Positions 1-44,500 are shown, counted from the stretch's first letter. The stretch is DNA of 64,000 nucleotides from Lytechinus pictus (GCF_037042905.1 NC_087245.1:16122001-16186000); one strand, 5' to 3'. Program-made: numbers and translations. Notes: generated from the letters alone by a model not told the origin.

Positions 1-249
1 TGAATGTTTGAATAACGGTTAAAATAAATTTATGTATGAATTACTAGTTCGTTTAATGGGTAACTTCGCCATGCGGCTGTGGCTATTACAGATATTTTAT
101 TTTGATTGGATGTAATTGATTGCTAGGTCATGAGGTGCTGATTATTTATCTGTCAATATCGATGGGATTACATATGAATTTAAAGATTAAAGACCTGTAT
201 CAATCTATTACCATTCACCTTAAACTGACCGTTTTTTTTTCATTTCAAG

Positions 250-4584: not shown

Positions 4585-4617
<33 letters not shown>

Positions 4618-13022: not shown

Positions 13023-16000
13023 CTAATAGAAATATCATTTCACAAAAGCTATGTAAACTCTCCTTTTGATTAAAAATAAAATTCAGAATGAATTCGGAAT
13101 TAGGCCTGCTCGACGCAAATTTAGCCTCTTAATATTAGTGAGAATGGAATAAAGAAACACTTAACTCCTCGAGGCGAGATCTTAACCCGTTTCAGGCTCA
13201 TTGCAAGATAATAATGTTGAGGGGTTGAATCACGCCAGTCGCTCCCCTCTTGGGGTTCATTCAAAGTACCCCTAAATTTGTACAATACTTTATTTCCACT
13301 AAAGTTCGGGGAGCTGTTCCTTACCAATTTGATTATTATAGTCACACCGACTATTAAACCGACTCCAAATCGATCGATGATTTTTCATTGAAAATAACGC
13401 GATATTTTGTATTGGTTTGGAGCTAATTTTATGGATGTGACTGTAAGCTTTCTATTATTATTATTATAATAATAATAGAAAGCTTTTCTATCATATAGCG
13501 TCAGATCCACCTCGGACAAGCGGCTAGTTAATAATTGTTTGGCAAATAAATTAATAGATAAGGTATATTTATCGATAAAGTAAACCGAGAGTCCAGAAAC
13601 TTAAGCAAATAAAAATGGATGGGACAGTTCTGATGAACTTTTAGTTGAATGAGATACGCTACTTTCATTCGCTCAATTCATTTCGGATATAAATGTTCAT
13701 ATATTTACCTATGGAATACGCGTTATAATCCATAGCATGTGCTCCTTTGTTATTCCATCCACGTCCCTCGTAAACGTTCAGATCATCCCCGATCAGGAAA
13801 TTGTAACCAATATCATCCCATTTATTCGAATCCATGTGATAGTTCTGTCAACAAAGAAATCGTAAACAAAAACTAAATGTCATTTTGTAATGATCACTAC
13901 TGTACAGATGGGGGTGAAGGTGTTTCTTCATCTTTCGTTTCCTTGAAAATTAAATTCTGGCTATATAGCGCACCACCCCTCGAACTTTTGAAATGTTATA
14001 ACTTTCTTATTTTACATCCGATTTTGATGAAATTTTCAGCGTTATGGTAGTTTGATTTTTTTTCTCTATTTATTCAAATCACCATTTTTTGGGTGGAATT
14101 GACCTTTAACTCTTTGTGAGACACCCCCACCCCCCCAAAACAAATGAACATTTCACATTCCGAAGAATCAGATGATGAGATGCCCGATCTCGCCATGTCA
14201 ACTTCCTTGGGACTTGTAAGAAGATATAGTAAGACTAGGATTTTGGATCCTTTTATGTCAACATCCTATAGAAAAGATGCTCAAATGATGAGATCCCGGA
14301 TCTCGTCATGTCACCTTTTTGGGGGGAAAGATAATGAGACGACAATGTTCTTAGATCCCGTTGCGTCAACATAAATTAAGCTCGGCTCACACAAATGCCA
14401 TTCGTTGCGACGCGATTTTTCAAGAAATCGCATTTTGCATTAAATATGACAGATCCAAGAAGTAAAAATATTTTATTTAAAGTTTGCCATAATGTAAGGA
14501 ATACTAAAATCACATTTATACTTGTGGTCGGAGTAAAGTCCAAATCGGCTTCAAGTCGCAGCCGATGATGACGTCCTATACGATTTAGATTTGAATTTGT
14601 TTTTATTCATTCAGGGAGGCTCGAACTGGACTGAATTTCGGTTTCAGTAGTCCTATACCACTATTCTGAACTCTGATCCGTAAGATTTTATTTGTTTGAA
14701 TGTCCATATCAAATGTTATCACAATTTCTTTGAAATTCGGATCGCAAAGAATCGCATAGTGTGAGCCGGGCTTTAGAGATGATCAGATGATGAGATCTCG
14801 GATCTCTCCATGTCTACATCATTTAGTAGAGGTGATCAGATGATGATATCTCTTATCTCGTCAGGTCAATTTACTGTAGAAGAGATAATATCCAGATGAC
14901 AAGATCTTGGATCGAGTCATGACAAAATCCCCGAGTAGAGATGATCAGTTGAGGAGATTCCTGATTATATCATGTCTGCATATTTTATAGGAGAGATTTT
15001 TTTACGAGATCCTGAAAATTTATCGTAACTTATCTTCCTACACAATGTGTACGCACTTGGCCCTACAAGAAGGCAATCACCTTTTTTGATAATTGAGACA
15101 TGACGAGATCGGGATCACACCATGTCGACATCCTGCTGGGGAGATGATCATATGACAAGATCTTTGATCTCATTATGCCTACATCCTTCAGCAATGATGA
15201 CAAGAAAACGAGATCCTTGGAATCACTCTCAACTTATTTCTTACACCTTTAACACCCGTAGCAGGCAACACCTTGACATGTATGGTGTCATCCTAAGTGA
15301 ACATGATGAGTTCGTAATCTGATCATTGCTGGTAAAGGATGTCGAGATGTAGGGATCTGGGATCTCATCATCTGGCCATTTCCTCTAGAGGATGTCGACA
15401 TGATGAGTTCCGGCATCTCGTAATCTGATCATTTCTGTTAAAGGATATCGACATGTAGGGATCTGGCATCTCATCATCTGGCCATTTCCTCTAGAGGATG
15501 TCGACATGATGAGATCCGAGATCTAATCATCTGCGGTCATCTCTTCGAGGGGGTGTTTCACCCTAATCAGATCCAAGATCTCGTCCGCTAATAGGGTGCC
15601 TACTTTCCAAGATCAATAACTAACTCAACATGTGGGTGGTACTTTTAAGCTTCCATATACCGTACCTGTATTCCTCTGACCGTAGCCTTGCATGATGTCT
15701 CGTCATAGCATCGACTACCATCTGTATGGTGAACCACAGCATACTCGAGAGGAGCATTCAGAGCGGTTGTGCTCTTAGGACTTCGAGCTCCCCACTCAGA
15801 ACGAGAGATGATGTTGGGACACTCGTAAGCTACAAACGGACAAATAGAAACAATTTCAGCATACGAACAATGCAACTCTAATGTACGTCCAAACACCTTT
15901 CAGAAATATATATATAGTTTGTAATTTTCTTATTTATCAGGATATTTGCATTCAGGTAAATCAGCAAAGATCTGGTAGGTTATCATCGATGCCCTGATGA

Positions 16001-20453: not shown

Positions 20454-20647
20454 TTTCACCCAGTAAATTAGATCGCATTGATCGATCTGTCTGATAAGTC
20501 AAAAAAAATCTAAGAAACAGCAGGATTTGAAACTCTCATCTACTGATTGCCGGTCAGCGACTGTAACACCAGGCCATCGCTGGTTCCTATAATTTTTTTG
20601 ACTTATCAAACAGATCGATCAATGCGATCTTATTTACAGGGTAAAAG
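20454..20647. mobile_element. Small inverted-repeat element with ~55 bp arms around a tRNA/SINE-head-like core
   Basis: gtaaattagatcgcattgatcgatctgtctgataagtcaaaaaaa versus tttttttgacttatcaaacagatcgatcaatgcgatcttatttac. The - strand core reads tggcctggtgttacagtcgctgaccggcaatc...gagtttcaaatcct. Confidence 0.65.
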
Positions 20648-22965
20648 CCATAAGTATTTACAGTATAACGACAGAGACTAGTCTTTCAACTCGTCTAAAT
20701 TCAACTTTAAATGTGGGGTGGACGCGAAACGCCTGTAATTAAATGATATTTTTGCTCTGTTTCTTTCTCCCCCCCCCCTTCTTTTGCGCATCCTCAATGC
20801 ACTGCCTATGGCACAATGTATTATCCTCCCCTAGATAGCGCCAATGATTAAATTTCCTCTCCGACTCGTAAATATAATATATGGAATCACCTTGAATTTT
20901 CACTTTGCTGGTAATTAAGGAAAAGCGAAGGAACGTTCAAGACAGAGTAAAAATTCAAAACAAGGAAACAAAATAAGGAAATAAGACATTCTATTACAGA
21001 GGGTAAAGGGAGGAAACATTTATATTCTTTCTGTGAAATGCAAAGAATGAATATTGTATTGAAACTATTTTGGGGGCAATAAAAAATAATCATATAAAAA
21101 GTATAGAAAGTAGCTGATAGTACAAAATAGAGTAATAACTAGAAGATCAGAAATACAAGTACTTTTATGTCGCGAAGGCGAATTCACAAAATAATTCCCG
21201 GAATCAATATTTCCTTTTGAGCTGTACTCACTCGTAAAAGATTCACAAAACGATATAGTTCATTCAGATACAAAGGATATATGAAGTGGTTTAGTGACGA
21301 TTTCAATTCAGATGACTTTTAGGTTTTTATTTTATTTTGATGACAAAAATAAGACATTAAAAAGTACCTGGTTCTCCTCGCTCGCTCCTATTATAATTAG
21401 CATTGTTTGAAAGCAGAATAAGTCTGAGAGACCAATCACTTAAAAAAAAAACGGGTCAGTAATATCGAAAGAATATATGAAAAGCTCCAACATTGATTGA
21501 ATGAGAAGGCAAACAAGTCAGCTAGCACCAACATTAAAAATGGCTTTAAATGACATTATTTTATTTTCAGGATCTCCTTCTCTCTCTCTGTCTCTTCATC
21601 TCTCCCTCATCTGCCCCCTCTCTCTCTCTCTCTTTCTCACACTCTCTTTAGTTAGAAAATAGATATAATTATATTTAAAAAGAGTATAATATTTTCCTGG
21701 ATATCAAAATAATTTTTTATGGTCAATAAATCGCAAAAAGGCTAATAATATGTCGACAAAAGATATCGTAAGAGAATTCGCATCGTATATAGATACATTA
21801 CGAATCCTTACTAACATTTATGGAGTGAGAAACAAAAAATACTTTATGAAACCTATTTAATACGATTCAAGCTTGATATTGATAAGGCATGAAAACGTAC
21901 TAAACAATGATGTAAACAAGAATATTGTAAATCACACATGAAAACATTAAAACACAATGGTGTCGAAATTAATGATTTTTTTCGGGTAGTTGATACATTT
22001 CATAATTTTTTTCTCGGATAAGGAACGCCTGATGAAAATATTGCATCATAACATTTTACGTGACTTTGTTCAGTAACCACTTTCCAATTCTCTACTATTA
22101 GTACCAGTACACAGAAACGAAGTAATTAATTATAGTTAGAAACTGAACAATAAGCTGTGGGCACGATAATATAGAATAATTTACCGTACTTAAAATTACT
22201 GTGGAATGTGATAAGGCGTTCTTTACATAAGTATAACCAAGGTCAGGAATCAGACCACGATAGGCCTATATGGTGTTGGTGTACATGCAGACAATGCTGT
22301 TCAATCTACAATTTAATACATGACTAAACTCCGTACGACTGTACACTTTCCATTACGCAATTACATTCATGTGTAATACTTTCATGCGAACAACCAATTC
22401 ATGACATAATTTGACCCATAAATTTCATTACTTCAAACCCATATTTCATCATGCCACTCAGCTTAAAAGATAATATTACTAATAAACTTTATGATAACAA
22501 GTAATTTTACTCACGTCACAGGGCTTGTATCACGAAATTAAACGGAATTTAACTCCGAGTACCTAGGCAAATGACACATTTTCCACGACGAGGCAAAATA
22601 AGCAACATGCCCTCAAGCGGTCAAATTCAAATCTATCTCAACGCTTTATTGCCGCTTCTGGTGTCAATTTACATCATTAAACAATCATTATAACGGATGA
22701 TGAAACTATGAAAGCTTCATCCTGCATGTAGACGCCACTAATGGCGTCGTGCCAGAAATGCTTAAGCTTTTCTAAGATTATACCAGTTTACAAAAAGGAG
22801 AAAAGAACATAGTATATATTTATTATTTACTGAGTCTTTCAAAAGTCTTTGGAAGGGTGGCTGATACCGCCGACTCGCAGTTTTTATTTATCCAAAAGTA
22901 TATTCCATCTCATGCTATTTTCTCTTTTTTTTGGGAAAAAATACCGCTTTTAATCAATCTCCAAA

Positions 22966-25900
22966 TTAGTTTGATGAATGCCATCTCGGACGATTCTTTC
23001 CAGACAATTGTTTGTGATCATATTTGATGGTCATGAAACCACCTTCACTATCCGGTAGTTGCATGAGCTGAATAGACCCGTCAGCTTTCACTAGAATCTC
23101 GAGCATACGGAAAGCCAGTGGAGTGTTGGACGGGATTTCTATGGAGCGCTTTCTTTCGTTTGACAGAGATGTTTCAAGGTTAACAATCTGAAATGTGAAT
23201 ATGGAGATAATTAATTTTCATATGTGAATAATACGTTACTATAGTTTGGGGATTAAATGTGCATTCTTGCAATAAAAAATAAATTTACAATTGACTAATC
23301 AATATTTACCAAGAAAATTTGAGAAAATCAAGTAATGATTTCTGTAACCGGAAAAATTTCATTGAATTGTTATTGTTGTTTTATTAATTTCTACTTCATT
23401 CGCATAAGTACAAAACAGTGTCACTAATAAACCATGTCTGCTAGGCCTAGCATAAATACATTGTGGCAATAGATTTAACAGGCATATAAATTACAGTTTT
23501 TGTTAACATCCAAAAGGGTAGAACAAATTGAAATGACACAATTTTAGTTATGGAAACGGACTGTCTTCTATAAATAATATTTCTAAGACTGATGATTGAT
23601 ATAGAGGCTTAAACTGGCTTTATATCTGATCTTGATTACAAGTTTACAGGGCCCTGGGAACGAATTTTTGACTGGGGTGCTGTTGTCAATTTGAAAAGCA
23701 AAAAAAAAAAATGGTTTCACTAAAAAATGAAGGTCATTTCGTCACGAGAAATATGACAAGCTAAAAAAGGGTTTCTGTTACAGTTCTCTATTTCATCACA
23801 GTGTCCAGAATTCCTGGGGGTGCTGCCTATGGAAAATAATACACTCAGCATCCCCAAGAAAAATCTAGGGGGTGCATCCCCACTTCTAAGGGCCATGCAA
23901 GTCACACAAAACTTTTCTTGGTCAAATAACTGGTCAACATTTCACCCCGTGTTGCCCCTTGTAAATGACACATTGTCAAATCGCACACAAAAGTGACACG
24001 TTTATGTGTGACATGGCACACAGTGACTGCCCTATGTGAATCACAAATTATTTGTGCCATTTATACACTCTTAAAACAAATCAGTCAAATTGACTAGACC
24101 AGTAGTCAGCTGGGTGTAACTAGTAGTCTATTATATTCTAGTCAGAAATAACTCTGTTCTCGTAAATTACGACTAGAAAAATGTCAAATATGGCTAGAAT
24201 AACAATTGCACCAAGCTGACCCTATGAACTAATTATTTTTGACCGATTTGTTTTTAGAGTGTTTTCAAAATGTGTCACGTTACAAATAAAGACAACTCAA
24301 ATGTAGAATTTAATATTCATAATTATGATATGTAGCAAAAAGACAATTTTCACAGTCATAGAAAAGTGAAAACAAATTTTTAAAAGGGAATTGAGGACAG
24401 AAAAGGAAATAAATTCATGGGAAAATAAGAGCACCGCCCATGACACGTCCCCCCCCCCCTTGCCCTAGATATGCCAGTGATTTCATCTCTTTTTTTTTGT
24501 AAATATAGAGGATTGAAATCACCATCCTTGATTATTCTTTGTTTGATGATTAAGGAAATGGAAAGAAAATAGTGACATTTAGTTAGAAAACAACACAAGG
24601 AAACGACAAAGGTTTATGCGGGGGCTGACAAAGGTTTATGGCAGATGAAGGGGTGAAACAAAATTGTATTTTTTCTGTGAAATGCGCATTAAGAATATGT
24701 TCTTGTAATAATTTATTGACGATCAAGGGAAGAAAATTCGGGTATAAACTAAGAAAAAAAAAAAAAAAAGATATCTTTCTGTGGTAGATGACTGTACAAA
24801 CTAGAGGAGAGTAATATTTACAAGATCAGTAAAGTATTAGTAATCATTATTTTCTAAATTGGAGGCAAATTCACAAAAATTGTTTTTTTTTCTTGTAAGC
24901 TGCACTCACTCATTAAACAATACAAAGGATAATTTGTTCAAGAACAAAAGGGTATATATTAATAAGTTAAGTGACATTTCAATTCAAATGTTTTAAGTTG
25001 ATATTTAATTTCATTAATAAGATATATACGCACATTAAAAAATATCTGATTCTCTTCGCTCGCTTTGATCACTCATTTATTAGGGATGTAACCGGAGATG
25101 GGTATGTGATCGGTTGTCTCGGTACTTTTTTTATATTTCATTTAAGTAGCCCCTTTCAGTACTTACTTTTTCGAAGTTATTAAGTGTATATGAGAAAGAT
25201 ACAGAAAGGGACGATACCCTAAAATTGTCAGGCCATTCTATGCCTAAAAATGGGTTTTATTATTTTCATAATCATTAAACAAATACGCAGATAATATGTT
25301 TGATCGGGCATTCACAGTTTTATTTTGAATCCTTTACATCTCAACCGTTTTATAAATTGAAATATTCCTAGTGACATCGACTTTAATTCAGCGATATTAA
25401 AGACATATTTTTAGTTTGCATGTATAAATTATCCCAAATAGATAAACTGTCAAAAACATGTTTGATGGATAATTGGAAGTTATTGTATCTTTTTTGTATC
25501 AGTGAATTATCACGTATATATTATGTTGTATGCCCGCCACAAACGGATCAATTCCTTTTTTATGATAAGTAGGCCTACTGGTAACCTGCATTAAAATGGG
25601 CTGGAATCTTGAAACCTTAATATCAAGCGATATTATTGTTTGATTTCTACAAAAAATGTCGAAATCGTTGAATTGTGGATAATCCTTTTTTTTATTGGGA
25701 TCCAACAAGCATTGTTAAGAACAATTTAGAATCTGCGTTTTATTGGCTCACCGAATTCATTGACCCCGGAGTAATATTTCCATCGGCTGATCCACTACTT
25801 TGTATGTCCACTGTAAGCTTAGACTCTGCTTCTGTGCTTAGTGTCATCACGACAAGGCAAAGAGTATTGCGTTTCGTCGACATTACTTCTTTGATGAAAT

Positions 25901-28404
25901 CATTTTTCAGGTTTACCTTCCTTTAAAAGAAAAAATGTAGTAAAAAAGGATAAATGGTTCACATTCAAGATGAAAACTAATTACCAATAACTAAGGAAAT
26001 TCCATGGGTGGGGGAAAATAACGGTCATGATATCAATATAGTTAATGCATCTACAATATCGTTGGAGTTGGACCCGATGGAACTACCTAAAGAGCCGTTA
26101 TAATAACAGCTCTGAAATTGGCTGTCCAACCATGTACCTACAATGATCCAACAGTATCGTTTCATTATTCTTATATAAGTTGCTGATTATGATATACTGT
26201 GTTTTTTATGATTTCGTAAAAAACAAAGTTGGTTTGATAAGTGAAAGCAGAAAAAATGTGAGATACATTTTGACAGACGGTTTGATGGAAACCCATCTCG
26301 GAATTTAGTTATGATTTTTTTTTTCATTTTGTGACTTACACGTATATTCACAATGAGATAGCAATATTGAATCGGGCGAAGCGGACATTCTACCACTAAA
26401 CTTCCATATGAGGGGCATTTGTTCAATGTAAAAAAAATGCCTTTGTTTAGTCTTTATACCATAATTGTAAATACACGTACAGTTTATTCATTTTGTCAAG
26501 AATCCGAGCAATCATATACAACTATATATTTTCAATGATAAAATTCCGTGTTTATGATAATTCGAACTAATTTGAACTTATTTGTATAGTCAATCGAAAA
26601 ACCAATAATTATGCAAGATTTATGTTTTGATTGATTGATTATAACAATTTATTTATGCTCTCTACTGCAATAAGCCGACCAGCATTAATATTAAATGAAA
26701 GCCCGGTTGATTTGACGACTAATTTAGGTCCTATATAATAATTTTCTTGTAACTGATTGCAAATTTGTTGCACTCCCCTATGGATGCTTAAAGTGCCACC
26801 CAAACGTTCATATAATCATCTAGTCATTTCTACATCTCTTAGGGAAAAGGATAAGATGACGAGATATCGGATCTTGTCATGTCTACATCCCGTGGGATCG
26901 ATGATAAAATGACAAGTCATGTCTACATCCCGTGTGAGAGATGATAGGATGAAAAGATCTTGGATCTCGTCATGTCTACATCTTATAGAAGAGATGATCA
27001 GATGGCAAAATTTCAGATCTCGTCATGTCTACATCCTGTGGGAGAGATGATCAGATGACAAGATCTTGGATCTCGTCATATCTACATCATGTGAGAGAGA
27101 TGATCAGATGACAAGATCTCGGATCTCGTCATGTCTACATGTCTACATGACGAGATGACTATATGAACATCTCGGTGGCACTTTTAAGCTTCCAAACCCC
27201 ACCCCTCACACGTTCAAATACACACGCATAGGCATAGGACTATAATCATACGTGAATCGTGTATATAGACTTTACCTTCCTCTGACCAAGTTGACTAGTT
27301 CAGGTACGTCAATTGATTTCTCTGCAACTTGGCCAAAGTCTACTGAAACCTCGATGTGTCGGTTGGTATCTAATTCGAATCCAGCCACTTCCCTTGCTAA
27401 AGAAGCTTCCAATTTACCTAAAGATAAACGTAAACACAAAAATCATACAATCGATGACACCATGACCGTATTTTGTCACAGCAGTATATCTTGCAAACCC
27501 GCATCTTTTGAAAAAAATTAATAAATGTCCAGGCAACATTACTTGTATGTAAAAATAAACTTACGAAACATCAAACGATTAACAAGTATATATATAATTA
27601 GAATGTCCATAATCGATTTTCGTAGCGACTCTGTATGTCAGTAATAACATATTATCAGTAATGGACCACAAAACTAATTGAAAATTAATTTACATATTAT
27701 ACATGATCTGTGGGTTTTTTCTTGCAAAAACCTAGTTTGCTAAAATGTGCATGAATATACGCCTAACCTTAATAATCAGCCTATTAATTTTTCATGAAAC
27801 ATACACCGGAACGACGTCTGCTATACCCCAGACATCGAGCCCTCGCATTGTCTACACAATGTATGCACCGACGGTATGCTTCATCCACTCACTGGGGAGC
27901 ATTCCAACAAGAGTTCCGGATTATATTGCTAGGCATATATAATTATAGGCTTTCTCATCCTACTGGTTACCCATTTAACATGAATGGAGAGCGACAAAGG
28001 ACAACAGGCCGCAGTGCGTTTCGAACAAACAACCTTCTGGTTTACAAGCCGAGAGCCAGAACCGCTACGCCGCGACGCTTCTCTAAAATGATACCTTTTG
28101 CTTCGATGGTCAGCAATCTTTCGAAGTTGACGAGGTCTTTCTTGGTCGGGTCGACTTCATCAAACGTACCATCTGCCTCATCGACATCGACGATATCGGA
28201 GAGAGTGAACGGTGTCGGATACAAACGGTCTTTATTCCAGAAAAACCTCTTTTTCTTCTTCACAACAATGTGATATGGATGACAATTATCTGCATCGGAT
28301 AAACTTGGAGATGGTATGAGGTTGGACAGGGCTCTGCTGGACACAGAGTGAACAAAGTTACCCGTTGCCTGATTGAAAATGCTATGTTTATAAGATAAAG
28401 CCAT
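22966..28404 (-). CDS. GSDME: Gasdermin E-like paralogue A: pore-forming N-terminal domain only (280 aa), no C-terminal autoinhibitory domain
   Basis: Exons 28404-28095 ([21 protein letters not shown]...[26 protein letters not shown]), 27417-27276 (VDFGQVAEKSIDVPELV), 25920-25752 (KRNTLCLVV), 23187-22966 ([30 protein letters not shown]...SSN*). These match recalled GSDME/DFNA5 N-domain motifs (FAKATRNF, KKKRFWCW, FGTLRKQEVD, NEVLCV, EIPAATTIAY, GGF). TAA at 22968-22966, AATAAA at 22888-22883. Confidence 0.85.
24066..24261. mobile_element. Palindromic MITE (CACTCT...AGAGTG termini)
   Basis: ta|cactcttaaaacaaatcagtcaaa ... tttgaccgatttgtttttagagtg. Confidence 0.65.
26788..27187. mobile_element. 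TIR element flanked by TTAA, carrying a ~54 bp tandem array (same unit as 14160-15545), in gasdermin A intron 2
   Basis: ttaaAGTGCCACC..gttcatataatcatc ... gatgactatatgaac..GGTGGCACTtttaa. Internal repeats agagatgatcagatgacaagatcttggatctcgtcatgtctacatc. Confidence 0.7.
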
Positions 28405-29135
28405 TTTGAAATCAAAGGTCAGTACCAATATTAAGATATTCCCTTCTAAACGCAAAGTGAAACGTATTAAACTATTTTAGTCGCTACCAATCTATTTGAG
28501 GTCTTATCCTGGTTCTATTTTGTAAAAATAATAATTCGCAATGTTGTTTGTAGCACAATCGTGATGAGACTTCGTAAAAGTCTTCCAAAAACAAGAGAAG
28601 TATCTCCTTTTGACGTTAAATTGTCATGTATATAATGTACAAAACGTCGGATGTGATGTGTCACGTGACGCGAGATTTTCCATGAATCTACTTCAATAAT
28701 CACTGTTTCGTAGCGATAAAAACTACCAGGTGAGAAGGAAATTTGAAGCAAAAGATTTGTCTACAGATTTTTCAAAGTGGTAAAAATTTTCCTGTTTCGG
28801 AGATAAACATTTTATTGTTCTTGAGACGATCAGCTATAGGGACGATATTAATTATGATCCAAAGAGATTACAATCAAAAGGAAAGTCTTTCCAACGATAT
28901 AGATTGAACATAAAAGAGAAAGAACAAATAATTAAGGTTCGATGAATAACGGAGTAATGATTTTTTTAATGTAACAGAGTAGCAGTTCTTCCATTATATC
29001 CAGGTGTGGTATAATTTTTTTAATGTAGGCCTACTCTTTTTTTTTCTCAAAACGAATGAAAGTGATGTTATTAGTGCAGGGGACGCATAATGCCCATTTC
29101 TATCAGAAAATAATTTGTCACCCTGTTCATTTGAA

Positions 29136-32585: not shown

Positions 32586-32639
32586 GATCTGATCGGTCTG
32601 GAGCCGGTTTCATTGATGTGACTCTGACATATATTTATT

Positions 32640-34941: not shown

Positions 34942-37900
34942 TTAGTCCCAGAGGGCGCACATGATGACAAGCAACCCATACGGGCTGAGATCATCCTCTT
35001 TCGTTTCCGTAGAATGGTAGGAGAGGAACCAATCTCCACCTGTTCTCTCTAGCTGGAGCCCCAAGCTAAACACAAGGCACTCTGCCCGCCTGGAACCAGC
35101 GAAGAGATCGCTAACAATCGGTTGGTCCAATGGCAGTCTCCCCGCCGTAAGTGTTTCCGCTAGCTGGTAACAAAATTGATTTAAAAAAAATAAAACTTTC
35201 ACATCAATGAAAAGTTTTCACATCGTTATAAATACTTTTACATCATCAGAATAAACTTTCACATCATCATAAGAAAATAATAAAACAAATTATATATGAT
35301 AATCAGATAAAATTATACTTTCACATCATTAGAAATATAGTTGAATGTTTAAATCTGAAGTACGTAGGTTCATTTTAGGAATCAACTTAAAGATTGTATT
35401 CAGTTATTTTCAGAGTGTAGATAGAGTTGTAATGAGTGAAAACCTTCATTTTGCAGTTTATTTTTTTAAATATGAAGAAAAAAAAATGGAGCGGTGGTGT
35501 CCTTAAATAAAACGTTAATTCTGTCGTATATTATAAAAAGTGGGTCAGTTTTTCATCCATATAAGATGACCCCCACCCACTTCCATCCTCATATCTACAT
35601 TTAAATGCAAGTGTTCTTCAGCATAAATGATAATAATAAGGTATTTTCATTTATTTTCATATTTCTTATTTTTGATTCACATAAAAAACAGTAACAGTAA
35701 TGCATAACCATTGAATTATAGACAACTGAATAATATACAATTAACATAATATAATGATACAATCAGTCGAGTTGTAAGGTAAAAGTCAAAGAAATCTGAT
35801 GGGACCTAAATAAATACTAGCTTGATAAATTGCTTGTGTTTTGAAAAGGAGAGGGTGGAATCTGCGATATATTGAAAAGCGTGGCCGCGAGATCCACCAT
35901 TATCCGATTATTCGAAATACTAAATACCAGCAAAACACGAATTCTTCTTACCACTTTAATAATTGACCGTTTCTCCTCTTCTGAACACTCGAACAATATT
36001 CTTCCCTGGTCTTCATTTAATGCTTGAATAGAAAAATTAATGAAATAATACAAATATTGATAAACAATGGATGATAAGCAATGAATGAATAATACAAATA
36101 TAAATAAATAATTATTTCCAAATTTTCTTTACAAAATAATGATAAAGAAAATCCCTCCCTAACAAGCAAATCCCTCGAAATTCCTGCTGTACGTGGAAAG
36201 ATAATTACTCTAACAAAAGTACTCAAATAAAAATACTTCATTAAAAGTACTTTAATTGATGTGACGTCATAATAGGTGGAATATGTGTCATATTTTTTCT
36301 GAGCAACTTTGCTATGGGTTTTTTTACCATGTACACATGGTAAATTTCTCTGATCTTAATATTCAATCTTGGTTGTGCACATTCACAGTCTGTAGACCTT
36401 TGAATGATGGTACAGGTATGTGTGTGACGAGGGTGTAGATCTAGAGCTTGTGTGGGGGAATCATAATCTTCATTCCTCTTTCTGGCAAGCCTTACCCTCA
36501 CCCTGAAGGGAACACTCCGGACACCCTGGGACCAGATGTACTTGTTTGGAGGGTGTTGTTTGTCGCAAACTTTATGACAGCCTCCTTCGTTGCGAAAATT
36601 ATAAAACAATTGCAATTAAATTATTAATTAATTGACCCGTTAAAGTGTCTTGAAATGAATGAATAAAATGATTACATAATGAGGTATTCACCTATGCAAA
36701 TGGTAGAATAGTTGTGAAAGTATTCTTCGCATATATCATGTGCTTAAAACAAAAAAATACTTACAACCCATTAGATCCACTAAATAGGACGTACAGACGA
36801 GGATGTTACTTTCATCTCCAGTCGGAAATACTATGTTCTCCTTCTATTAATATCATGTAAGAAACAAAACAAACATGAAATCACGATGGTGCGTTTTCTC
36901 CCATCTTCATGACATTCAAAGAAAATCTACCCTTTATCCTTTGTTTGTTTGTTTTATTTCCGTGTACATAGTACAAAAAACATGAAATGATAGATGTCAA
37001 GGTCGCAGTACAGTAAGAATTAATAAGGATAAAAAAGTAAATCATACGGCTGGTAGTCCATATTCAGTTGCAATATCATATTGCTGCTGGTCTTCCATTG
37101 GAGCCAGTTTACTTGAATAATAGAAATGATTACCATAGTTGTATAGGAAGCTGACCAATAATAATAATAATAAAACATTTTACATAGCCCACATCTACTC
37201 AACATCCTAAAATCCGAATTATTTATTGCACATCTCATTATCATTTTCTCCCTCTTCCTCCATAAACCTTGGGTTAAAGAAATTGGTCTTTTCTCCTTCC
37301 ATTTTTTCTTCTTTTTTGGGGGGGAGGGGATGTTTGGTTCTTTCATTTGCTTTTCTTCATCCCTGTACCTTTTCATCATCGATGCTATTCCCTTCTCTAT
37401 TTTCCCCTTTTTCTTCTCTCTGCTTTCCGAAAGCATACAAATTATCATATTTGCAACTGAAATCCCAGTCAGTCGATTAACTAAGCTCTTCAAAATGAAA
37501 AAAACAACAACTGGGGCCTGTTGCATAAAACTTTTCACCCGAGAAAACTCTGGTTAAAACTGAAAACTAAGGTTAGTCTGATTTCTGCCATTGACTTTAA
37601 CACAGGGCAAAAACTCCGGTAAAAACAACCTGAGTTTTTTCAGGTAAAAAGTTTTATGCAACGGGGCCCTGATGAATAGACAAACCTCGAAACTGAAGCC
37701 CGCCACCTGTAGGTAAGGTTTGATATCATTGAGATCGGGACAGCCGAGCTTCTCTTTCATCATCTCCCATGTCGTCTGCTTCCCTCCTTCTCCGACAAGT
37801 AAAGCATTCAGTGCGACCTGCAGCTGTAAAGATGGAAAGGGGAATTTATTTCAATAGCAATATGGGTGCAGGTTGCTGCCAGTTCCTCCTATTTAAAAGG

Positions 37901-40900
37901 ATGATCCGGGCTGGAAATATTTCTATCTAATTGAAAAGAGTTAAATTAGCAGAGCAAAATGCTGAAAATTTGATCAAAATCAGATGACAAACAAAGTTAT
38001 TGAATTTTAAAGTTAGCAATATTTTGTGAAAACAGTTATATGCACATCGTCATGAATATTCATTAGGTGGGCTGATGATGTCACATCCCTACTTTCCTTT
38101 TTCCTATGTTATTACATGAAATCATAATTGATTCATTATTTGATACATGTGTGAATGATATGTCTCCTGTATAATAAAATACGTTGCAGCAGTGCTTATC
38201 TAATGCTCTCAATCAGTTGTCAATCTAATTTCTTTAGTTATTGGAGGAAAAAATTGAATAAACCTAATTTCATATAATAAAATGCAAAAGAACAAGTGGG
38301 GATGTGATATCATCAGTTTACTCATTGAATATTCATGAAGACATGCCTAGAACCTTTTCACTGGAATAATGCAAAACTTTAAAATGTCATAACTGTGTTA
38401 TTCTTTGTCCGATTTTGATCAAATTTCAGTGTTTGTTTGTCTGATTTTTCTTTATCTCTTCAAATCATATTATTTTCAGCCTGGAGTACCCATTCAAGAC
38501 GAGCCTGAAAATTACAGTATCATATGTCATATACGACGTTTGGATATGCGACACCTTTTCATGTCTGAATGCTCTTCTATTGGTGCTTATGTCTGAATCT
38601 GAATGGTTGTTCATTCACTTATCGTATCATAAATTATCTTGTATTAATATACCACATTAGAAAGTGCATTTTAAGTAGAGTTGGAGTATCTATAATCTAA
38701 CTTAATTTGCCAGATAAAGCCGACTTGAAAATATTTGTAATTCAACTATCTCTGATTTTATAATCCTTATTCCCACTACAAATTCACTAAAGGTTCATAA
38801 AAATGAGGTTAAAACTCACCATGATGTTCAGACTGTCTAGTTGGATAGGATGTTTGAGAAGTAGAGTAAGGGACTGACGAACATCCTTGAGATCTTGATC
38901 AGGCAAAGACAACATTGCTTTTAACTGATCTCGAATCTCACCTATGTCTCGCACTGGAGCTGCATGGAGTAGAGAAAGATAATATAAATGGTTACTGGTA
39001 CATATTGTATATTACTGAACATTAAACAATGATAATCTTGAATTATCATTAATAGAAAATATCATATCAGGAATGATTAATGGCAACAATAAAAAAGATC
39101 ACATCACTGTAAAAACTATAATTGTTAAATCAATGATGGTATTGTCAATGAAAATAACAATAACAATAAAATGAAAGGATTATAATATCAATGGGTTTTT
39201 TTATATAATAGGATTCCCTTGCACTCCGTAACTAAAAAAAAACATAATTAACTTTCAAACTCCAAAAACAGACTTTGCACGAAATAGCAGCCTTTATCTT
39301 GCCACACTTAAATTTAAGTCATTTGCAGAAAATATTCGACCCCCCCCCCCTCTGCCCGCTACCATGGCTACAGAAGTTGGCATCTCACACTTACCATTTA
39401 CATTGAAATGAAGATCGCCCCTCGGTGTTAAATCTGTATCTTAATGAAAAGGAGCAAATACAATATCAAATCAAATCAAATCAAATCTGAACAAATGATT
39501 GAATCAATAAAGTAAGAAATTAAATTTTATGACATCATCGAACCATTTTTCATCAATATAAATCCAAACGAATTACGTCCTTTTTACATATGTTTATTTA
39601 AAAGATGAAAAGTAAAAGATGACAATAAAGACAATGATGTAACGATGATGATGGCGATGATGAGGATGAGGTAGAATATATTGATGATGACGATGATGAA
39701 GATGATGAACATAATGATGATGATGATGATGATGACGATGATGACAATGATGACGATGATGGTGATGATGATAATGATGCTTAAAATTAAATACAAACCT
39801 TGTGATTCAGATAAACGTTCAACTAAATGTAAATCTTACCTTTCTTTCATATGTTTCCATCTCCTTTCTTTTCTTTACTGCGCAACGAGCATCTTCTCCA
39901 GCCGGTGCATTTTAAATGTCCGTATAATTTTATTATTGTCATCATTATTATGATTATGATGACGGTGATGACGAAGATGGTTGTGATGGTGGTGATGGTA
40001 GTGCCGTGCCGTGGTGGTATAGGTGGTGGTGGTGATGATGATGATGATGATAATGATGATGACGACGACGACGACGATGATAGATGATAACGATGTTGAT
40101 GATGGTGGTGGTGGTGATGTTGATGGTGATAATGATGATGATAAAGGTAACTATAGATATAGTAATGGTGATGGTGGTGATTTTTTTTTTTACCAATTGA
40201 TTCATTATACAACGCGCCAGAAATGTTGTCGATTTTGTCCTCTTGAAGTACTAGTATTCTTTTTTTTGGGAAGGGGGTTTATGAAGAAACATATTTCATA
40301 AAAATATACTTACGATCATATTTAGGCTTATGACCACGTTCATCATCTTTAATGGTCATGAAACCACCTTCACTGTCCGGTAGTTGCATGAGCTGAATCG
40401 ACCTGTCAGCTTTCACAAGAATCTCGAGCATACGGAAAGCTAGTGGGGTGTTGGATGGGATTTCTATGGAACGCTTTCTGTCGTTTGACAGCGAAGTCTC
40501 AAGGCTAACCTGAAATACGAATATAATGAGATTTATCTTCATTTATGACCGATACGATAACGTATCGAGGGGGTATGTAAACATACTTGCAGTCGAAAGC
40601 AACATGTTTAGATCACCCTTTAGCATGTTTATGGTACAGTGACGTCACAACCAGAATGATCAGCATTATTGGTGGAGGAGCCGTGGTGTAGTGGTTCTGA
40701 CTCTCGCCTTGTAAACCGAGGGTCGTGTGTTCGAATCCCACCACGGTCTGGCGTCCTTTGGCAAGGTGTTGATCCACACTTTGCCACTCCCGACCCAGGT
40801 GCTAAATGGGCACCCGGTAGGATGTGAAAGTCATTGTAGCTTGTCCGGTACTGTGTGTGCCTCACCGGCGACTGGCTGAGATACTCCCCATGGAGTGGAG

Positions 40901-43900
40901 GATGTGCAAACATTGTGTGCGGGAATGACTGATTGAACCAGTCGACCGTTGTAATAATATATCTGTAAAGCGCTTAGACACGTCGTTCCTATGTATTAAG
41001 CGCTACACTGTAAAAAATGAAGTGCTAATCTAGCACTTACAGTGCTTGTATAGTGACTGTACTACGAGTGTTGATTTTCTAGTTTAAATTTGAACTAGAA
41101 AATCATCACTAGTAGTGCAGTCCCTATACAAGCACTGTAAGTGCTATATTAGCACTTCGTTTTTTACAGTGTATATAAAAGCAGATTATTATTATTATTA
41201 AGTTCACACTAAGAAACACCTTGTTTTCATGCATGAAGAGGTGGGACTGTAGTTATGTAGGTGATTAAATCTTCCATCTTTAATTCCGATGATTGTTGAT
41301 TCGAGTACCGTTACCGGCGTCCGTGTCCTAAAACATTTATCTAGTTTGATATTCACTGTTATAGATACTTTATGCAGTTAGGCGTATGTGAGTGTTTTTT
41401 TTTAATGTTTATAATTATACATTACAATCAAGAGCAAAACAAAATATTCAATAGTGATGAAAATCACTATTGAATATTGAGACAACGTAGGTTAGAAGAA
41501 TTATCCAAAAGGGAAATGTTTTACCCATGCATTTAGCGAAAGTAAAATTAATCGAAATCAATTCCATAACCTAGACACTTCTAGTAACACCCTTTTGAAT
41601 GTCTCATCAATTTCTGGTGAAGTCTATGTCAAGGGTTACCAAGAATGTATACAATAATAATAATAATATAGGGTATTTATATTGCGCACATCAAGGCGCT
41701 CCTATATTACCCGGCTAAGCTAGGCGTTCATAGCACACACAGCTGTCTAATTTAGTCTGTGGAGTTCAAATTCAAGTGTCGTGGGTATAAAGTTCAGGAA
41801 GTGAAAGTGAAGCATATCGTATATAAAATCATGACCACTTGAAAGCATTCTTGACAAGAAAAAAAATGTGAACGTAATCATGGTATAGATGGAAACATAA
41901 ATCAAGTGTTTCTAATTATTAGCTATGACAATGGTAACAAACTGGTTTCATTAGCGAAACTTAATATTCGTTGTAATTAATGTTGATTATTCTCATTTCT
42001 GATATTTAACGGGGTATTACCCTTTAAGTGAAAGTTGAATCATTGAAATTTGTATCAGATATGAAGCATACGATTTTTTCAAATGCACTTGTGAGCAAAA
42101 TAATATATAAAAGTGTAAAGTAAATTGAATGAAAAGCAGTGAATTTAAGATTCACGGTAGATTTGTCAAAATATCGACCCCCACGGTCAATAACAATATA
42201 TTTGAACCCAAGTTTGCACGTAAACATGTACATAAATAATCACAAATATTATGATCCTGTCAACACTTTTATATTGAATAACTGGCATTTATTTGCTCTG
42301 CTGTATTTGTGTTCTTTTTGTATCAATGAATGTTTGTATCATTCCTATATCATATCGCATACCCTCCACAAACATGACAAAACGCTGAAAGGTACTTTTA
42401 AGCCTATACAGTATAGACTTGAATCTTAACATTTTGATCTTTGGTGGATCTTTGCTTTTAAAGAAATTTTGATTGAATTGTGTCGAGCTTTTGATCAAAG
42501 AATTTATGACTGTGATGGAGTATAAGGTACATTTATCAAATCAACGCTCTGATTGGCTCACCGAATGCGCTGATCCCGTAACATTTCCATCGGCTGATCC
42601 ACTAGTTTGAATATCTGTTGTGATTTTAGACTCTGCTTCTGTGCTTAGTGTCGTCACGACAAGGCAAAGCGTATTGCGTTTCGTCGACATTACTTCTTTG
42701 ATGAAATCATTTCTCAAGTTTACTTTCCTTTAAAGAAAAATAAAGGATGTTTGGTTTATATTTTACATGGAAGGTGTATGTGATTATACAGGTGGGGAAA
42801 ATAACGATCATGAAATCGGACATGGTCAATGCATTTACACAGCTTGAACTCCCCGTGGCATCAAATTCGGTGTGATAGCTGAAAACAGAAAATAAGAGAT
42901 ATTAAAATACCTTTTCGCCCAAAACATGGATGTATATAGTTATGAATCTTGTTTAATCCTAACGTTTTATCTCGTGACTAATTTTCAAAATAATGTATAA
43001 AGAGATCGAATAGTGATACTAAAATTCCATGTGAATATATACTTGCAATCGTCAGATCGTGTATTGATAATCATGTTAACTTAACACCCTATATGTTTAT
43101 AGCCAGTATAATGAACAGAAACAAATTTGTAGTCAATCGACTACCAGTTGTATATTCTGCATGATTATTTGCCATTGATATACATGTAGATCAAGTTATA
43201 TTTGAAGCCATAATTTTATACTCCATTTGTGTTCCAAGAATGCGGACAATGGCAATTATCATATTAATTGCAAGCCTTACATGTTTCACTGATTTGAGGA
43301 CTTATAAATTTTACTTGAACTTCATTTTAATATTCTTGCAACACTGCATCTTCACACGTACATCCACCCCTGAGCACGCAGACTCACGCACGTATTATTG
43401 TGCATTCATGTATGTATCCTGTATATGAATCAATATTTACCTCCCTTTTACCGAGTTGACTAGTTCTGGTATGTCGAGTGATTTCTCTGCAATTTGGCCA
43501 AAGTCTACTGAAACTTCGATCCGATGATTGCCATCTAATTCGAAACCAGCCACCTCCATCGCTAAAGAAGCTTCCAATTTACCTAAAGATGATTATAATC
43601 ACGATGATAGCACAGTACAAGTAAATACTTGTTTGTAATCTCTTCACATAACATCAATTATTTGTATAGTGATAGAACATTGTTTTGCCACAACAGTATA
43701 TTCATATTAATATATTGCAGACCATATGAGTATGATGGGTTTTTTTAATGAACAAATAAATGAGGAAACGTGTACAATATGCAAAATTTAGACTTCGACG
43801 GAGGTATGCAAACTTTATCGCTAATTAGCGACAATATATTCATTTATAGAAGTGTTATGGATGAATGGACATCAAACCTTTGAAAGAAAATTTCATTTTA

Positions 43901-44500
43901 ATGCACGACTTTTCTCATCGAAAAAAACACTGTTTAAAAGGTACATGCAGTAGTTAGCATAAAGATCAAATATGAGGTCGTTAATCAGCCTTATATCTTT
44001 CCATGGTATACATGTAAAAAGCACTTGCTTATCAATGATTACGTATATGCTTGGAATACTATAGAAAAATTATGAGAATATCTTCGATATGATCGAAATG
44101 CAATTCAATTATCACTATTCAGTTGCGATTGTACTCAATTCATATTACGAAAAGTATAAAAACAGATAATGACCGGTACATAAATGATACCTTTTGCTTC
44201 GATGGTCAGCGTTCTTTCGAAGTTGACAAGGTCTTTCTTGGTTGGGTTGACCTCATCAAACGCATTGTCTGTCAGGTCGCCATCGACGATATCGGAGAGA
44301 GTGAACGGCGTCGGGTACAAACGGACTTTATTCCAGAAATACTTCTTGTTCTTCTTCACGACAAGGTGATATGGATGGCAGTTTCCTGCATCGGACAAAC
44401 TTGGAGATGGTACGAGGTTGGACAGGGCTCTGCTGGACACAGAGTGAACAAAGTTACCCGTTGCCTGATTGAAAATGCTATGTTTGTAAAATAAAGACAT
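34942..44500 (-). CDS. GSDME: Gasdermin E-like paralogue B: full length (about 502 aa), N-terminal pore domain + linker + helical C-terminal domain
   Basis: Exons 44500-44191, 43582-43441, 42727-42562, 40509-40314, 39439-39395, 38959-38820, 37823-37686, 36843-36765, 36022-35952, 35163-34942. All GT/AG and in phase, 1509 nt in total. The N-domain is paralogous to copy A. The C-terminal exons are leucine-rich and helical, ending [12 protein letters not shown]. Linker DHTD at residues 271-274. Confidence 0.9.
36363..36552 (-). pseudogene. RPL31: Ribosomal protein L31 retrocopy fragment (5'-truncated, frameshifted) within an intron of gasdermin B
   Basis: [31 protein letters not shown], then after a frame disruption [24 protein letters not shown], matching the eL31 C-terminal half. 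Uninterrupted by introns. Confidence 0.85.
37513..37669. mobile_element. Palindromic MITE 17 nt from a gasdermin B splice donor
   Basis: ggggcctgttgcataaaactttt ... aaaagttttatgcaacggggccc. Confidence 0.75.
39630..40182. repeat. (GAT)n/(GGT)n microsatellite blocks in gasdermin B intron 4
   Basis: Direct reading; two blocks at 39630-39780 and 39945-40182. Confidence 0.85.
40676..41200 (+). mobile_element. tRNA-derived SINE with (ATT)n tail, interrupted by a MITE
   Basis: A box gtggtgtagtgg, B box gttcgaatcc, core ccactcccgacccaggtgctaaatgggcacccggtagg, tail aagcgcta..tataaaagcagattattattatt. Relatives at 63745-64000 and 8342-8550. Confidence 0.8.
41006..41171. mobile_element. Near-perfect 166 bp hairpin MITE with TA target duplication (Tc1/mariner-like)
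   Basis: ta|CACTGTAAAAAATGAAGTGCTAAT ... ATTAGCACTTCGTTTTTTACAGTG|ta. Confidence 0.85.

What the first reader, a model, noticed from the sequence alone, without database searches (positions are those of the whole stretch)
22966..28404. Pore-domain-only gasdermin: a genetically pre-cleaved GSDME paralogue beside its full-length parent
Seen in sequence: copy A has four intact exons matching exons 1-4 of copy B, then reads past the position of B's donor to a TAA at 280 aa, with AATAAA about 80 nt later. I found no homologue of B's six downstream exons between 18.8 and 22.9 kb. The product ends close to where caspase cleavage of B would end (D274). Established: GSDME is held inactive by its C-terminal domain, and the free N-domain forms lytic pores; N-domain-only gasdermins with cleavage-independent control are known from Trichoplax (redox/disulfide) and Neurospora RCD-1 (heteroallelic pairing). 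Inference: A may be a protease-independent pyroptosis effector controlled by transcription or by a partner in trans (for example B or its released C-domain), or a dominant-negative/co-oligomerising modulator of B. I cannot confirm that this is undescribed.
Basis: partly seen in the sequence, partly recalled or inferred. Interest (0 to 1): 0.92.

Follow-up and report, generated by a model that had tools for sequence, protein, structure and literature searches.

The report
Sea urchin gasdermin gene lacking its brake
A sea urchin carries, next to its normal two-part gasdermin cell-death gene, a second intact copy that encodes only the membrane-piercing half; the copy appears to be kept by selection, but it is already annotated and similar short forms have been published, so it is a useful test case and not a new principle.

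Summary
In this Lytechinus pictus window, copy A (minus strand, 28404-22966) has four intact exons matching exons 1-4 of the ten-exon copy B (44500-34942). It runs 8 codons past B's exon-4 donor position to a TAA at 280 aa, with AATAAA 78 nt later. No trace of B's C-terminal exons lies downstream of A or elsewhere in the 812-Mb assembly.

A equals RefSeq XP_054757324.2 ("pejvakin-like"), so it is already annotated. A covers the whole Pfam gasdermin pore domain and folds confidently as one. B folds as a two-domain gasdermin with a disordered linker.

A-B dN/dS is 0.26. A changes about 2.6 times faster than B but stays below neutrality (about 0.38). Expression evidence is thin: one short contig.

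A tree puts A with B. S. purpuratus's own 271-aa N-only gene groups with S. purpuratus paralogues, which implies independent origins or gene conversion.

Precedent exists. The amphioxus splice form BbGSDME-S1 lacks the C-domain and is lytic. N-only forms are reported for S. intermedius and Hydra, and S. purpuratus GSDME Ea/Eb/Ec are listed (PMC10155998).

Verdict: a real, probably functional N-only GSDME paralogue, a new member of a known kind. Its mechanism is untested.

The parts
28095..28404 (-). Copy A exon 1 (ATG at 28404; 310 nt)
   Evidence: Model reproduces P0003 exactly. It is 84.6% aa identical to B exon 1. The donor AAAG|GTATCATT is identical to B's.
27276..27417 (-). Copy A exon 2 (142 nt)
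   Evidence: A 249-nt contig of run X5 (depth 3.5) covers 27275-27482 without mismatch. Its match stops within 1 nt of this exon's donor boundary, and 41 more letters of the contig lie elsewhere.
25752..25920 (-). Copy A exon 3 (169 nt; one codon longer than B's 166 nt)
   Evidence: The donor TTCG|GTGAGCCA is identical to B's.
22966..23187 (-). Copy A exon 4 with its own end: 8 read-through codons (RPRWHSSN) and TAA at 22968-22966
   Evidence: Blastn homology with B stops at 23017/40342. Nothing is alignable beyond the donor position.
22987..22992 (-). Former exon-4 donor position in A: AATC|GTCCGA. It keeps GT but has lost +3, +4 and +6 of B's GTAAGT.
   Evidence: That this donor is weak is inferred from the consensus, which I recall. 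No splice-site scorer was run.
22819..22888 (-). Two AATAAA polyadenylation signals (22888-22883 and 22824-22819), 78 and 142 nt after the stop
   Evidence: pattern search. No 3' end was seen in reads.
28405..28804 (-). A's upstream region, homologous to B's upstream region (44501-44900), so the duplication took the promoter-proximal DNA with it
   Evidence: Local alignment of 391 columns at 62% identity scores 62, against shuffles of 14.6 +/- 2.3. Blastn aligns 28086-28651 with 44182-44720 at 77.6%.
22310..22724 (.). Dispersed repeat about 240 nt downstream of A's stop. A second repeat family lies at 21822-22183.
   Evidence: Own-genome search found 44 matches on many contigs at 69-78% identity.
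34942..44500 (-). Copy B, the full-length two-domain gasdermin (10 exons, 500 or 502 aa; a 39/45-nt linker microexon at 39395-39433/39439)
   Evidence: The AF2 model has pLDDT 83.6, an N domain, a disordered stretch at 269-288 and a helical C domain at 289-500. Foldseek matches full-length GSDMD and GSDMA3, and the GSDMD C domain 6ao3_C at TMt 0.72. A spliced contig across exons 7-10 is present in run X5.
15648..15899 (-). Exon of the next gene downstream of A, a peptidoglycan-recognition-protein homologue. It limits the space available for any further A exons.
   Evidence: phmmer against PDB sequences gives E = 1.5e-11 to PGRP3 4z8i.

Best explanation
Copy A is a genuine, intact gene, kept by selection, that encodes only the pore-forming N domain of a GSDME-type gasdermin.

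Shown:
- A arose with B by tandem duplication in the Lytechinus lineage.
- Its homology with B ends at the exon-4 donor, so either the duplication was partial or the 3' part was lost later.
- The donor has decayed from GTAAGT to GTCCGA. The frame closes 8 codons later, and polyadenylation signals follow.
- The product is a complete gasdermin N domain that stops inside what is the disordered linker in B. It has no autoinhibitory C domain.

Inferred:
- A is a cleavage-independent pore former.
- Its activity is gated mainly by when and where it is made: rare or induced transcription, perhaps with post-translational control. This is what the amphioxus splice form BbGSDME-S1 suggests.
- Similar C-domain-less paralogues arose separately in Strongylocentrotus.
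For: Architecture:
- The exact 4-exon model equals RefSeq XP_054757324.2.
- Splice sites are intact.
- No C-terminal exons lie downstream or anywhere else in the assembly.
- No homologue of the alternative C-terminal tails of the S. purpuratus paralogues is present in the window.

Fold:
- Pfam PF04598 scores 93.9 bits against a cut-off of 25 and covers profile positions 2-238 of 240.
- The AF2 model has pLDDT 84.1 and pTM 0.81.
- All top Foldseek hits are gasdermins: TrichoGSDM 8jyw and 8jyv, GSDME 9h5m, and the GSDMB, GSDMA3 and GSDMD pores.

Selection:
- Over 262 codons dS is 0.296, dN is 0.077 and omega is 0.26, with a bootstrap 95% interval of 0.15-0.42.
- Exons are 88.8% identical in nucleotides, against about 60% for flanking introns and upstream DNA.
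- With A's share of amino-acid changes taken, omega on the A branch is about 0.38. P(32 or fewer nonsynonymous of 54 | neutral) = 0.002.

Lineage-specific origin:
- (LpA, LpB) has support 95/94.
- The clade of all four Strongylocentrotus sequences, which holds the N-only Sp271 and Sp711, has support 95/92.

Precedent for lytic activity of a C-domain-less GSDME: BbGSDME-S1 induces pyroptosis in 293T cells (PMC10155998, passages read).

Transcription: one X5 contig on exon 2 whose match ends at the exon's donor boundary.
Against: - A evolves faster than B: 21 A-derived against 8 B-derived changes, 8 ambiguous, among 37 differing sites; two-sided P = 0.024. Constraint is therefore relaxed.
- The constraint measured may date from before the truncation if the 3' exons were lost recently.
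- An open frame alone is weak evidence. Under neutral simulation P(no stop) is 0.05-0.22.
- Expression is barely documented. In three RNA raw-read runs, about 6% sampled, the bins holding A's exons are at or near zero. B's exons are equally silent there, so those samples say little. The single X5 contig also carries 65 nt of intron 1, and exon 1 has no cover.
- No orthologue of A was found in another species. L. variegatus proteins did not appear in the searches at all.
- No lytic activity, lipid binding or control mechanism has been tested.
- An unrestrained pore former would be dangerous to the cell, so some unknown control must exist.
Confidence: 0.5

Rival explanations
1. A is a functionless truncated duplicate. 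Either it was a dead-on-arrival partial copy, or it was once full length and recently lost its 3' exons. It is still open by chance and annotated only because the frame is intact.
For: - A accumulates amino-acid changes 2.6 times faster than B.
- P(no stop) under neutrality is 0.05-0.22.
- Almost no RNA cover was seen.
- No orthologue was found elsewhere.
- Dispersed repeats sit just downstream of the break.
Against: - Omega on the A branch is about 0.38, with P = 0.002 against neutrality.
- All three introns keep their splice signals. The only length differences in the shared 262 codons are in frame.
- Exons are far more conserved than introns.
- The break leaves a complete domain, followed at once by a stop and poly(A) signals.
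- An independent N-only paralogue exists in S. purpuratus.
Confidence: 0.25
2. A is not an autonomous killer. It is a modulator of B: it co-assembles with the cleaved N domain of B, tuning or blocking the pore, or it is held in check in trans by B's C domain.
For: - In amphioxus the longer N fragment N304 binds N253 and inhibits N253-driven pyroptosis (PMC10155998, passage read).
- A and B are 86% identical over the N domain and share upstream sequence, so co-expression and mixed oligomers are conceivable.
- A's relaxed but real constraint fits a derived role.
Against: Nothing tested here speaks to binding. A keeps the whole pore domain, including the basic and aromatic KKKKRFFW stretch that aligns with the family consensus WFWQ. 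It therefore shows no obvious loss of pore features.
Confidence: 0.15
3. The 280-aa model is incomplete. In vivo, A exon 4 splices, from the retained GT at 22991 or from another donor, to unrecognised downstream exons. These would encode a different C-terminal region, as in the 711-aa S. purpuratus paralogue with an acidic tail.
For: - GT is retained at the old donor position.
- S. purpuratus has a gasdermin N domain followed by a long acidic tail (P0009), and an older 304-aa model carried a different tail (P0008).
- About 4 kb lies between A and the next gene.
Against: - The donor has lost +3, +4 and +6.
- tblastn of P0009 and P0008 finds no tail homology in the window.
- The current RefSeq model ends at the TAA.
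- Poly(A) signals lie directly after the stop.
- Much of the downstream DNA is dispersed repeat.
Confidence: 0.07
4. A is an assembly artefact: a haplotig or a collapsed or misjoined copy of B.
For: Tandem position next to B in a highly heterozygous species. That sea urchins are highly heterozygous is recalled, not tested here.
Against: - A and B differ at 11% of exon bases and about 40% of alignable intron columns, and their intron lengths differ. This is far beyond allelic divergence.
- Each exon is present once per copy in the assembly.
Confidence: 0.02

Closest known systems
Amphioxus BbGSDME-S1 (Wang et al. 2023, PLoS Biol, PMC10155998; passages and S1 Table read)
   Same: It is a GSDME product of an invertebrate deuterostome that lacks the C-terminal inhibitory domain through early termination. 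It was shown to induce pyroptosis in 293T cells without cleavage. The same paper states that Hydra and S. intermedius have N-only isoforms.
   Different: S1 is an alternative splice form of the single full-length gene. A is a separate locus with no C-terminal exons at all, its own poly(A) signals, and its own history of selection.
S. purpuratus 'pejvakin-like' XP_030830372.1 (271 aa; P0007), one of the GSDME Ea/Eb/Ec genes listed in S1 Table of PMC10155998
   Same: It is a sea urchin gene for a gasdermin N domain that ends a few residues after the same exon-4 boundary. The Pfam pore domain is complete.
   Different: It is only 62% identical to A. In the tree it groups with S. purpuratus paralogues, not with A. 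It is therefore either an independent truncation or an orthologue masked by gene conversion.
TrichoGSDM of Trichoplax adhaerens (PDB 8jyv, 8jyw)
   Same: It has a pore-domain-only architecture in an animal, and it is the best structural match of the A model: E = 1.2e-15, TM 0.58-0.67, 22% identity. It is activated without cleavage (PMC13305819, passage read).
   Different: Its control is a disulfide-linked autoinhibited state released by antioxidant systems. A has only two cysteines, C41 and C172, and both are shared with B and the other urchin paralogues. No A-specific redox switch is visible.
Neurospora RCD-1 (PDB 8jyz, 8jyy)
   Same: It is an N-domain-only gasdermin-like protein activated without cleavage, by pairing with a second variant (PMC13305819). 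This is conceptually like a possible A plus B-N pairing.
   Different: The structural match is very weak: E = 4.9e-4, TM 0.22-0.26. It is a fungal allorecognition system with antagonistic alleles, and nothing comparable was tested here.
Vertebrate pejvakin (PJVK/DFNB59)
   Same: It is a short gasdermin-family protein with a heavily truncated C-terminal domain (PMC8742441, passage). NCBI's automatic name for A is 'pejvakin-like'.
   Different: A is a recent paralogue of the urchin two-domain gene (86% aa identity). It has no C-terminal domain at all beyond an 8-residue read-through. Orthology to PJVK was not tested.

Membership tests
Gasdermin family (pore-forming N domain, Pfam PF04598) | Sequence match to the pore-forming domain profile above the curated cut-off and over its full length | tested here: met
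   A scores 93.9 bits against a cut-off of 25; residues 10-258 cover profile positions 2-238 of 240.
Gasdermin family (pore-forming N domain, Pfam PF04598) | Gasdermin N-domain fold | tested here: met
   The AF2 model has pLDDT 84.1 and pTM 0.81. The top 31 Foldseek hits with E <= 0.001 are gasdermins, led by 8jyw, 8jyv and 9h5m.
Gasdermin family (pore-forming N domain, Pfam PF04598) | Lipid binding, oligomerisation and membrane pore formation | not testable with these tools
   This needs cell-death and liposome assays.
Two-domain, protease-activated gasdermins (GSDME type) | C-terminal autoinhibitory domain joined by a cleavable linker | tested here: not met
   A ends at residue 280 inside the linker equivalent. 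No C-domain exons lie downstream or elsewhere in the genome. B meets this feature.
Two-domain, protease-activated gasdermins (GSDME type) | Caspase cleavage at a linker aspartate | not tested
   B's linker (about 263-288) holds several Asp residues, including D271 at the exon-4 end. No protease assay or site prediction was done. A has no domain to be cut off.
C-domain-less GSDME splice isoforms (BbGSDME-S1 type) | Product is the N domain alone through early termination | tested here: met
   The 280-aa product stops 8 codons past the old donor.
C-domain-less GSDME splice isoforms (BbGSDME-S1 type) | Made by alternative splicing of a gene that also makes the full-length protein | tested here: not met
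   A is a separate locus 6.5 kb from B and has no C-terminal exons.
TrichoGSDM-type redox-gated N-only gasdermins | Pore-domain-only architecture | tested here: met
TrichoGSDM-type redox-gated N-only gasdermins | Disulfide-linked autoinhibited state released by reduction | tested here: inconclusive
   A has two cysteines, C41 and C172, both also present in B and in the 6 outgroup sequences aligned. There is no A-specific cysteine. Whether they form disulfides cannot be told.
RCD-1-type heteromeric activation | Activation by pairing of two distinct N-only variants | not tested
   No evidence bears on this. The structural match to RCD-1 is weak (TM 0.22).
Pejvakin (PJVK) orthologues | Orthology to vertebrate PJVK, with its short C-terminal region | not tested
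   The name is NCBI's automatic label. The tree used only urchin, hemichordate and unnamed sequences.

The most novel reading that the evidence does not exclude
Sea urchins have repeatedly and independently turned duplicates of their GSDME gene into stand-alone pore-domain genes: A in Lytechinus, and the 271-aa gene in Strongylocentrotus. They keep these genes under selection as protease-independent executioners, switched on by transcription during immune responses, or as partners that set the threshold of the full-length gene's pore. That would be a genetically hard-wired alternative to caspase control of pyroptosis in a deuterostome.
Probability: 0.3. Interest if true: 0.7.

Novelty: new member of a known kind. 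Interest (0 to 1): 0.42.

Why it matters
Gasdermins are normally kept safe by their own C-terminal domain, and how cells tolerate forms without it is known for only a few cases. A dedicated N-only GSDME gene beside its full-length parent would allow a direct test of how an animal controls an unrestrained pore former. I recall that L. pictus can be bred and gene-edited in the laboratory, which would make such tests practical. The apparent second origin of such a gene in Strongylocentrotus hints that the arrangement is useful and not accidental. The principle of C-domain-less GSDME that is lytic is already in print for amphioxus, and this gene is already annotated. The value therefore lies in a new, tractable example.

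Tried and rejected
- Complex prediction of A(1-266) with B's C domain (280-500) gave no verdict: score 0.01 against a mark of 0.34, and the controls were not run. It counts neither for nor against binding.
- Sequencing-run search: no RNA holder was listed for the A stretch. Six runs were offered by species label only.
- Laying four runs gave repeat-derived partial reads for X1-X3: 96-98% of what was laid runs on unlike the stretch. There was almost nothing on A or B exons. Only X5 contigs were informative.
- Clustering of A-specific substitutions in the beta1-beta2 loop (5 within 16 residues) looked suggestive but is not significant after a scan correction (permutation P = 0.25). I dropped it.
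- The search for short fragments of A in the protein collection found none: 43 candidates, 0 scored.
- Searches for A orthologues found no Lytechinus variegatus protein. Whether that species' proteins are in the collection is unknown, so this is not evidence of absence.
- Earlier notes of this scan: nothing near this place. The 8 notes shown for 'gasdermin' concern archaeal, bacterial, fungal and phage loci and do not bear on this.
- A bacterial promoter/terminator scan is irrelevant to a eukaryote and is not used.
- Pfam did not recognise B's C domain at E <= 0.01. The fold comparison did.
- Literature searches found no paper describing a Lytechinus gasdermin or discussing N-only gasdermin paralogues in echinoderms. 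The architecture drawings in S1 Table of PMC10155998 are graphics that I could not read. They may already show the N-only S. purpuratus gene.


Full report
**What the window is.** The best protein match of copy A's first exon is a 280-aa RefSeq protein, "pejvakin-like [Lytechinus pictus]", at 100% identity. Copy B matches a 500-aa "pejvakin-like isoform X2" of the same species (9 proteins at E <= 0.001 among 86 candidates; accessions XP_054757324.2 and XP_063953205.1). The window is G000:C1:16122001-16186000 of an 811.7-Mb, 368-contig assembly. GC content is 31-40%.

**The observation.** Blastn of the A region against the B region aligns four segments and nothing else except dispersed repeats:
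- 28086-28485 with 44182-44575 (85.3%)
- 27271-27425 with 43436-43590 (86.5%)
- 25742-25934 with 42552-42740 (88.1%)
- 23017-23238 with 40342-40559 (85.1%)

I rebuilt both gene models from window coordinates until they gave the database proteins letter for letter.
- A has four exons: 28404-28095, 27417-27276, 25920-25752 and 23187-22966.
- B has ten: 44500-44191, 43582-43441, 42727-42562, 40509-40314, 39433-39395, 38959-38820, 37823-37686, 36843-36765, 36022-35952 and 35163-34942.
- Isoform X1 of B uses acceptor 39439.

All three A introns keep GT..AG and pyrimidine tracts. B's exon 4 ends GATC|GTAAGT. A reads AATC|GTCCGA at the same place (22992|22991), and its frame runs 8 more codons (RPRWHSSN) to TAA. 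AATAAA follows at +78 and +142 nt. The only correction is that the aspartate at the end of B's exon 4 is D271 in P0004 numbering.

**Absence of a C-terminal half.**
- tblastn of B against the window finds residues 273-500 only in B's own exons. The best hit below 23 kb has E = 2.4.
- Sensitive blastn of 16000-23060 against 28500-40400 finds only repeats.
- A local alignment of the DNA after A's donor position against B's intron 4 scores 16-22, against shuffles of 14-18 +/- 2. Control flanks score 39-62.
- In the whole assembly B gives 14 matches: 9 on B exons, 4 on A exons and one weak hit on another contig.
- The C-terminal tails of the S. purpuratus paralogues have no counterpart in the window.
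- The next gene downstream is a PGRP homologue, with an exon at 15648-15899 (E = 1.5e-11 to 4z8i).
- Dispersed repeats occupy 22310-22724 and 21822-22183 (44 genomic matches).

Homology thus breaks at the exon-4 donor. Either the duplication was partial, or the 3' part was lost later. I cannot tell which.

**What the proteins are.**
- A covers the Pfam gasdermin pore-forming domain end to end: 93.9 bits against a cut-off of 25, profile positions 2-238 of 240.
- With an 85-sequence alignment, AF2 gives pLDDT 84.1 and pTM 0.81. Confidence is low only at residues 1-5, at about 102-120 and 192-218, and in the tail.
- Foldseek's best solved matches are TrichoGSDM (8jyw, 8jyv), GSDME (9h5m) and the GSDMB, GSDMA3 and GSDMD pores.
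- B, modelled with 63 sequences, has pLDDT 83.6, an N domain, a stretch of pLDDT below 50 at 269-288 and a helical domain at 289-500.
- B matches full-length GSDMD and GSDMA3 over about 505 columns, and matches isolated GSDMD C domains (6ao3_C, TMt 0.72). Pfam itself did not recognise B's C domain.
- A therefore ends inside the equivalent of B's linker.

**Is A alive?**
- Over 262 shared codons dS = 0.296, dN = 0.077 and omega = 0.26, with a bootstrap interval of 0.15-0.42.
- Exons are 88.8% identical, and 4-fold sites differ at 20 of 103. Flanking introns and 400 nt upstream align at only about 60% with many gaps.
- I polarised the 37 amino-acid differences with the S. purpuratus and S. intermedius 502-aa proteins. 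This gives 21 changes on A, 8 on B and 8 ambiguous (two-sided binomial P = 0.024).
- If synonymous changes are split evenly, omega is about 0.38 on A and 0.14 on B. The probability of 32 or fewer nonsynonymous among 54 changes under neutrality is 0.002.
- A is therefore relaxed but still constrained.

Caveats:
- The even split of synonymous changes is an assumption.
- The constraint could pre-date a recent truncation.
- The open frame alone is weak evidence: P(no stop) is 0.05-0.22 in neutral simulations.
- An apparent cluster of A-specific changes in the beta1-beta2 loop is not significant (P = 0.25).

**Expression.**
- No RNA run was listed as holding the stretch.
- In three RNA raw-read runs, about 6% sampled, nearly all laid reads are partial repeat matches. 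The bins holding A's and B's exons are at or near zero.
- In the contig run X5, B has a spliced contig across exons 7-10, with joints 35163/35952, 36022/36765 and 36843/37686 at depth 6.4.
- In X5, A has one 249-nt contig at depth 3.5 on 27275-27482. Its match stops within 1 nt of exon 2's donor boundary while 41 letters continue elsewhere. It also includes 65 nt of intron 1. Exon 1 has no cover.
- This is consistent with low-level, partly processed transcription of A, but it is thin.

**Relatives.**
- S. purpuratus has a 502-aa full-length protein, a 271-aa N-only protein and a 711-aa protein with an acidic tail, all on one 39.7-Mb chromosome.
- A maximum-likelihood tree of N domains (11 sequences, first 275 residues) groups A with B (95/94). 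It puts all Strongylocentrotus sequences together (95/92), with Sp271 and Sp711 as sisters (100/100).
- A's branch is 0.16 against 0.051 for B.
- N-only genes therefore arose independently in the two lineages, or gene conversion hides an older origin. I could not test conversion or synteny because no other echinoid genome was available.
- Short gasdermin predictions are common in databases. Of 10 short representatives looked up, 7 carry names: a hemichordate, a jellyfish, a bivalve and four fishes. Several sit beside a longer isoform or model.

**What is known.**
- Reviews note sea urchin gasdermins only as homology hits (PMC9355259 passage; PMC11508797 passages).
- PMC10155998 (passages; S1 Table text) reports that the amphioxus splice form BbGSDME-S1 lacks the C-terminal inhibitory domain and induces pyroptosis in 293T cells.
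- The same paper states that Hydra and S. intermedius each have an N-only isoform, and that S. purpuratus has GSDME Ea, Eb and Ec on one scaffold.
- The GenBank S. intermedius "isoform 2" that I could see (415 aa) lacks the N-terminal part, not the C domain.
- Cleavage-independent N-only gasdermins of early-branching eukaryotes work through disulfide release or heterodimerisation (PMC13305819 passage).
- A has only two cysteines, both shared with B and the outgroups.
- My searches found no paper on Lytechinus gasdermins or on selection and independent origins of N-only paralogues.

**Verdict.** A is best read as a real, selectively maintained gene for a stand-alone GSDME pore domain. It most likely acts as a cleavage-independent pore former gated by expression (confidence 0.5). 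The rivals are a functionless truncated copy (0.25), a modulator of B (0.15), hidden 3' exons (0.07) and an assembly artefact (0.02). It is a new member of a known kind: annotated, with published precedents, but uncharacterised and well placed for experiments.

Noticed in passing
window 15648-15899 (-): An exon of a peptidoglycan-recognition-protein homologue lies directly downstream of copy A, so the two gasdermin genes sit next to another innate-immunity gene.
   Followed up: partly
window 120-5561 (+): A plus-strand gene has a C-type lectin domain (120-491, E = 2.7e-11) and a PAN domain (1429-1713), plus ORFs that look to me like YWTD/LDL-receptor repeats. The last point is my reading and Pfam did not confirm it.
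   Followed up: partly
window 39580-40280, inside B intron 4: A long low-complexity tract reads as runs of His, Asp, Ile or Ser in different frames. It is probably a microsatellite-like expansion.
   Followed up: no
window 27884-27917 and 29130-29960: Short segments attract hundreds to more than a thousand RNA reads per run that continue into unrelated sequence. These are probably transcribed dispersed repeats. The 29.1-30.0 kb element also occurs at 9.8-10.4 kb, 14.0 kb, 16.1 kb and 38.2-38.5 kb of the window.
   Followed up: no
L016 1126-1755 (-) = G000:C8 about 10378 kb: A 209-codon open frame has a weak match (E = 0.0085, 38% identity) to residues 9-82 of B. It may be the first exon of a distant third gasdermin-like gene, or it may be chance.
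   Followed up: partly
P0009 (S. purpuratus XP_030830373.1, 711 aa): A gasdermin N domain is followed by a long Glu/Asp/Lys-rich tail in place of the usual C domain. This is a second kind of C-domain replacement in sea urchins.
   Followed up: no
P0017 (S. intermedius UYI58619.1, 415 aa): The deposited 'gasdermin E isoform 2' lacks about the first 115 residues and keeps the C domain. That does not fit the description of an N-only isoform in PMC10155998, so another record may be meant.
   Followed up: partly
A and B exons against their flanks (window 22966-28804 and 40314-44900): Four-fold degenerate sites differ at 19%, while adjacent introns and upstream DNA differ at about 40% of alignment columns. 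This could reflect exon-biased gene conversion, constraint on synonymous sites, or fast intron turnover.
   Followed up: no
window 39395-39439 (-): B's 39-nt linker microexon has two acceptors 6 nt apart (39433 and 39439). These give isoforms of 500 and 502 aa that differ by two residues in the disordered linker.
   Followed up: partly
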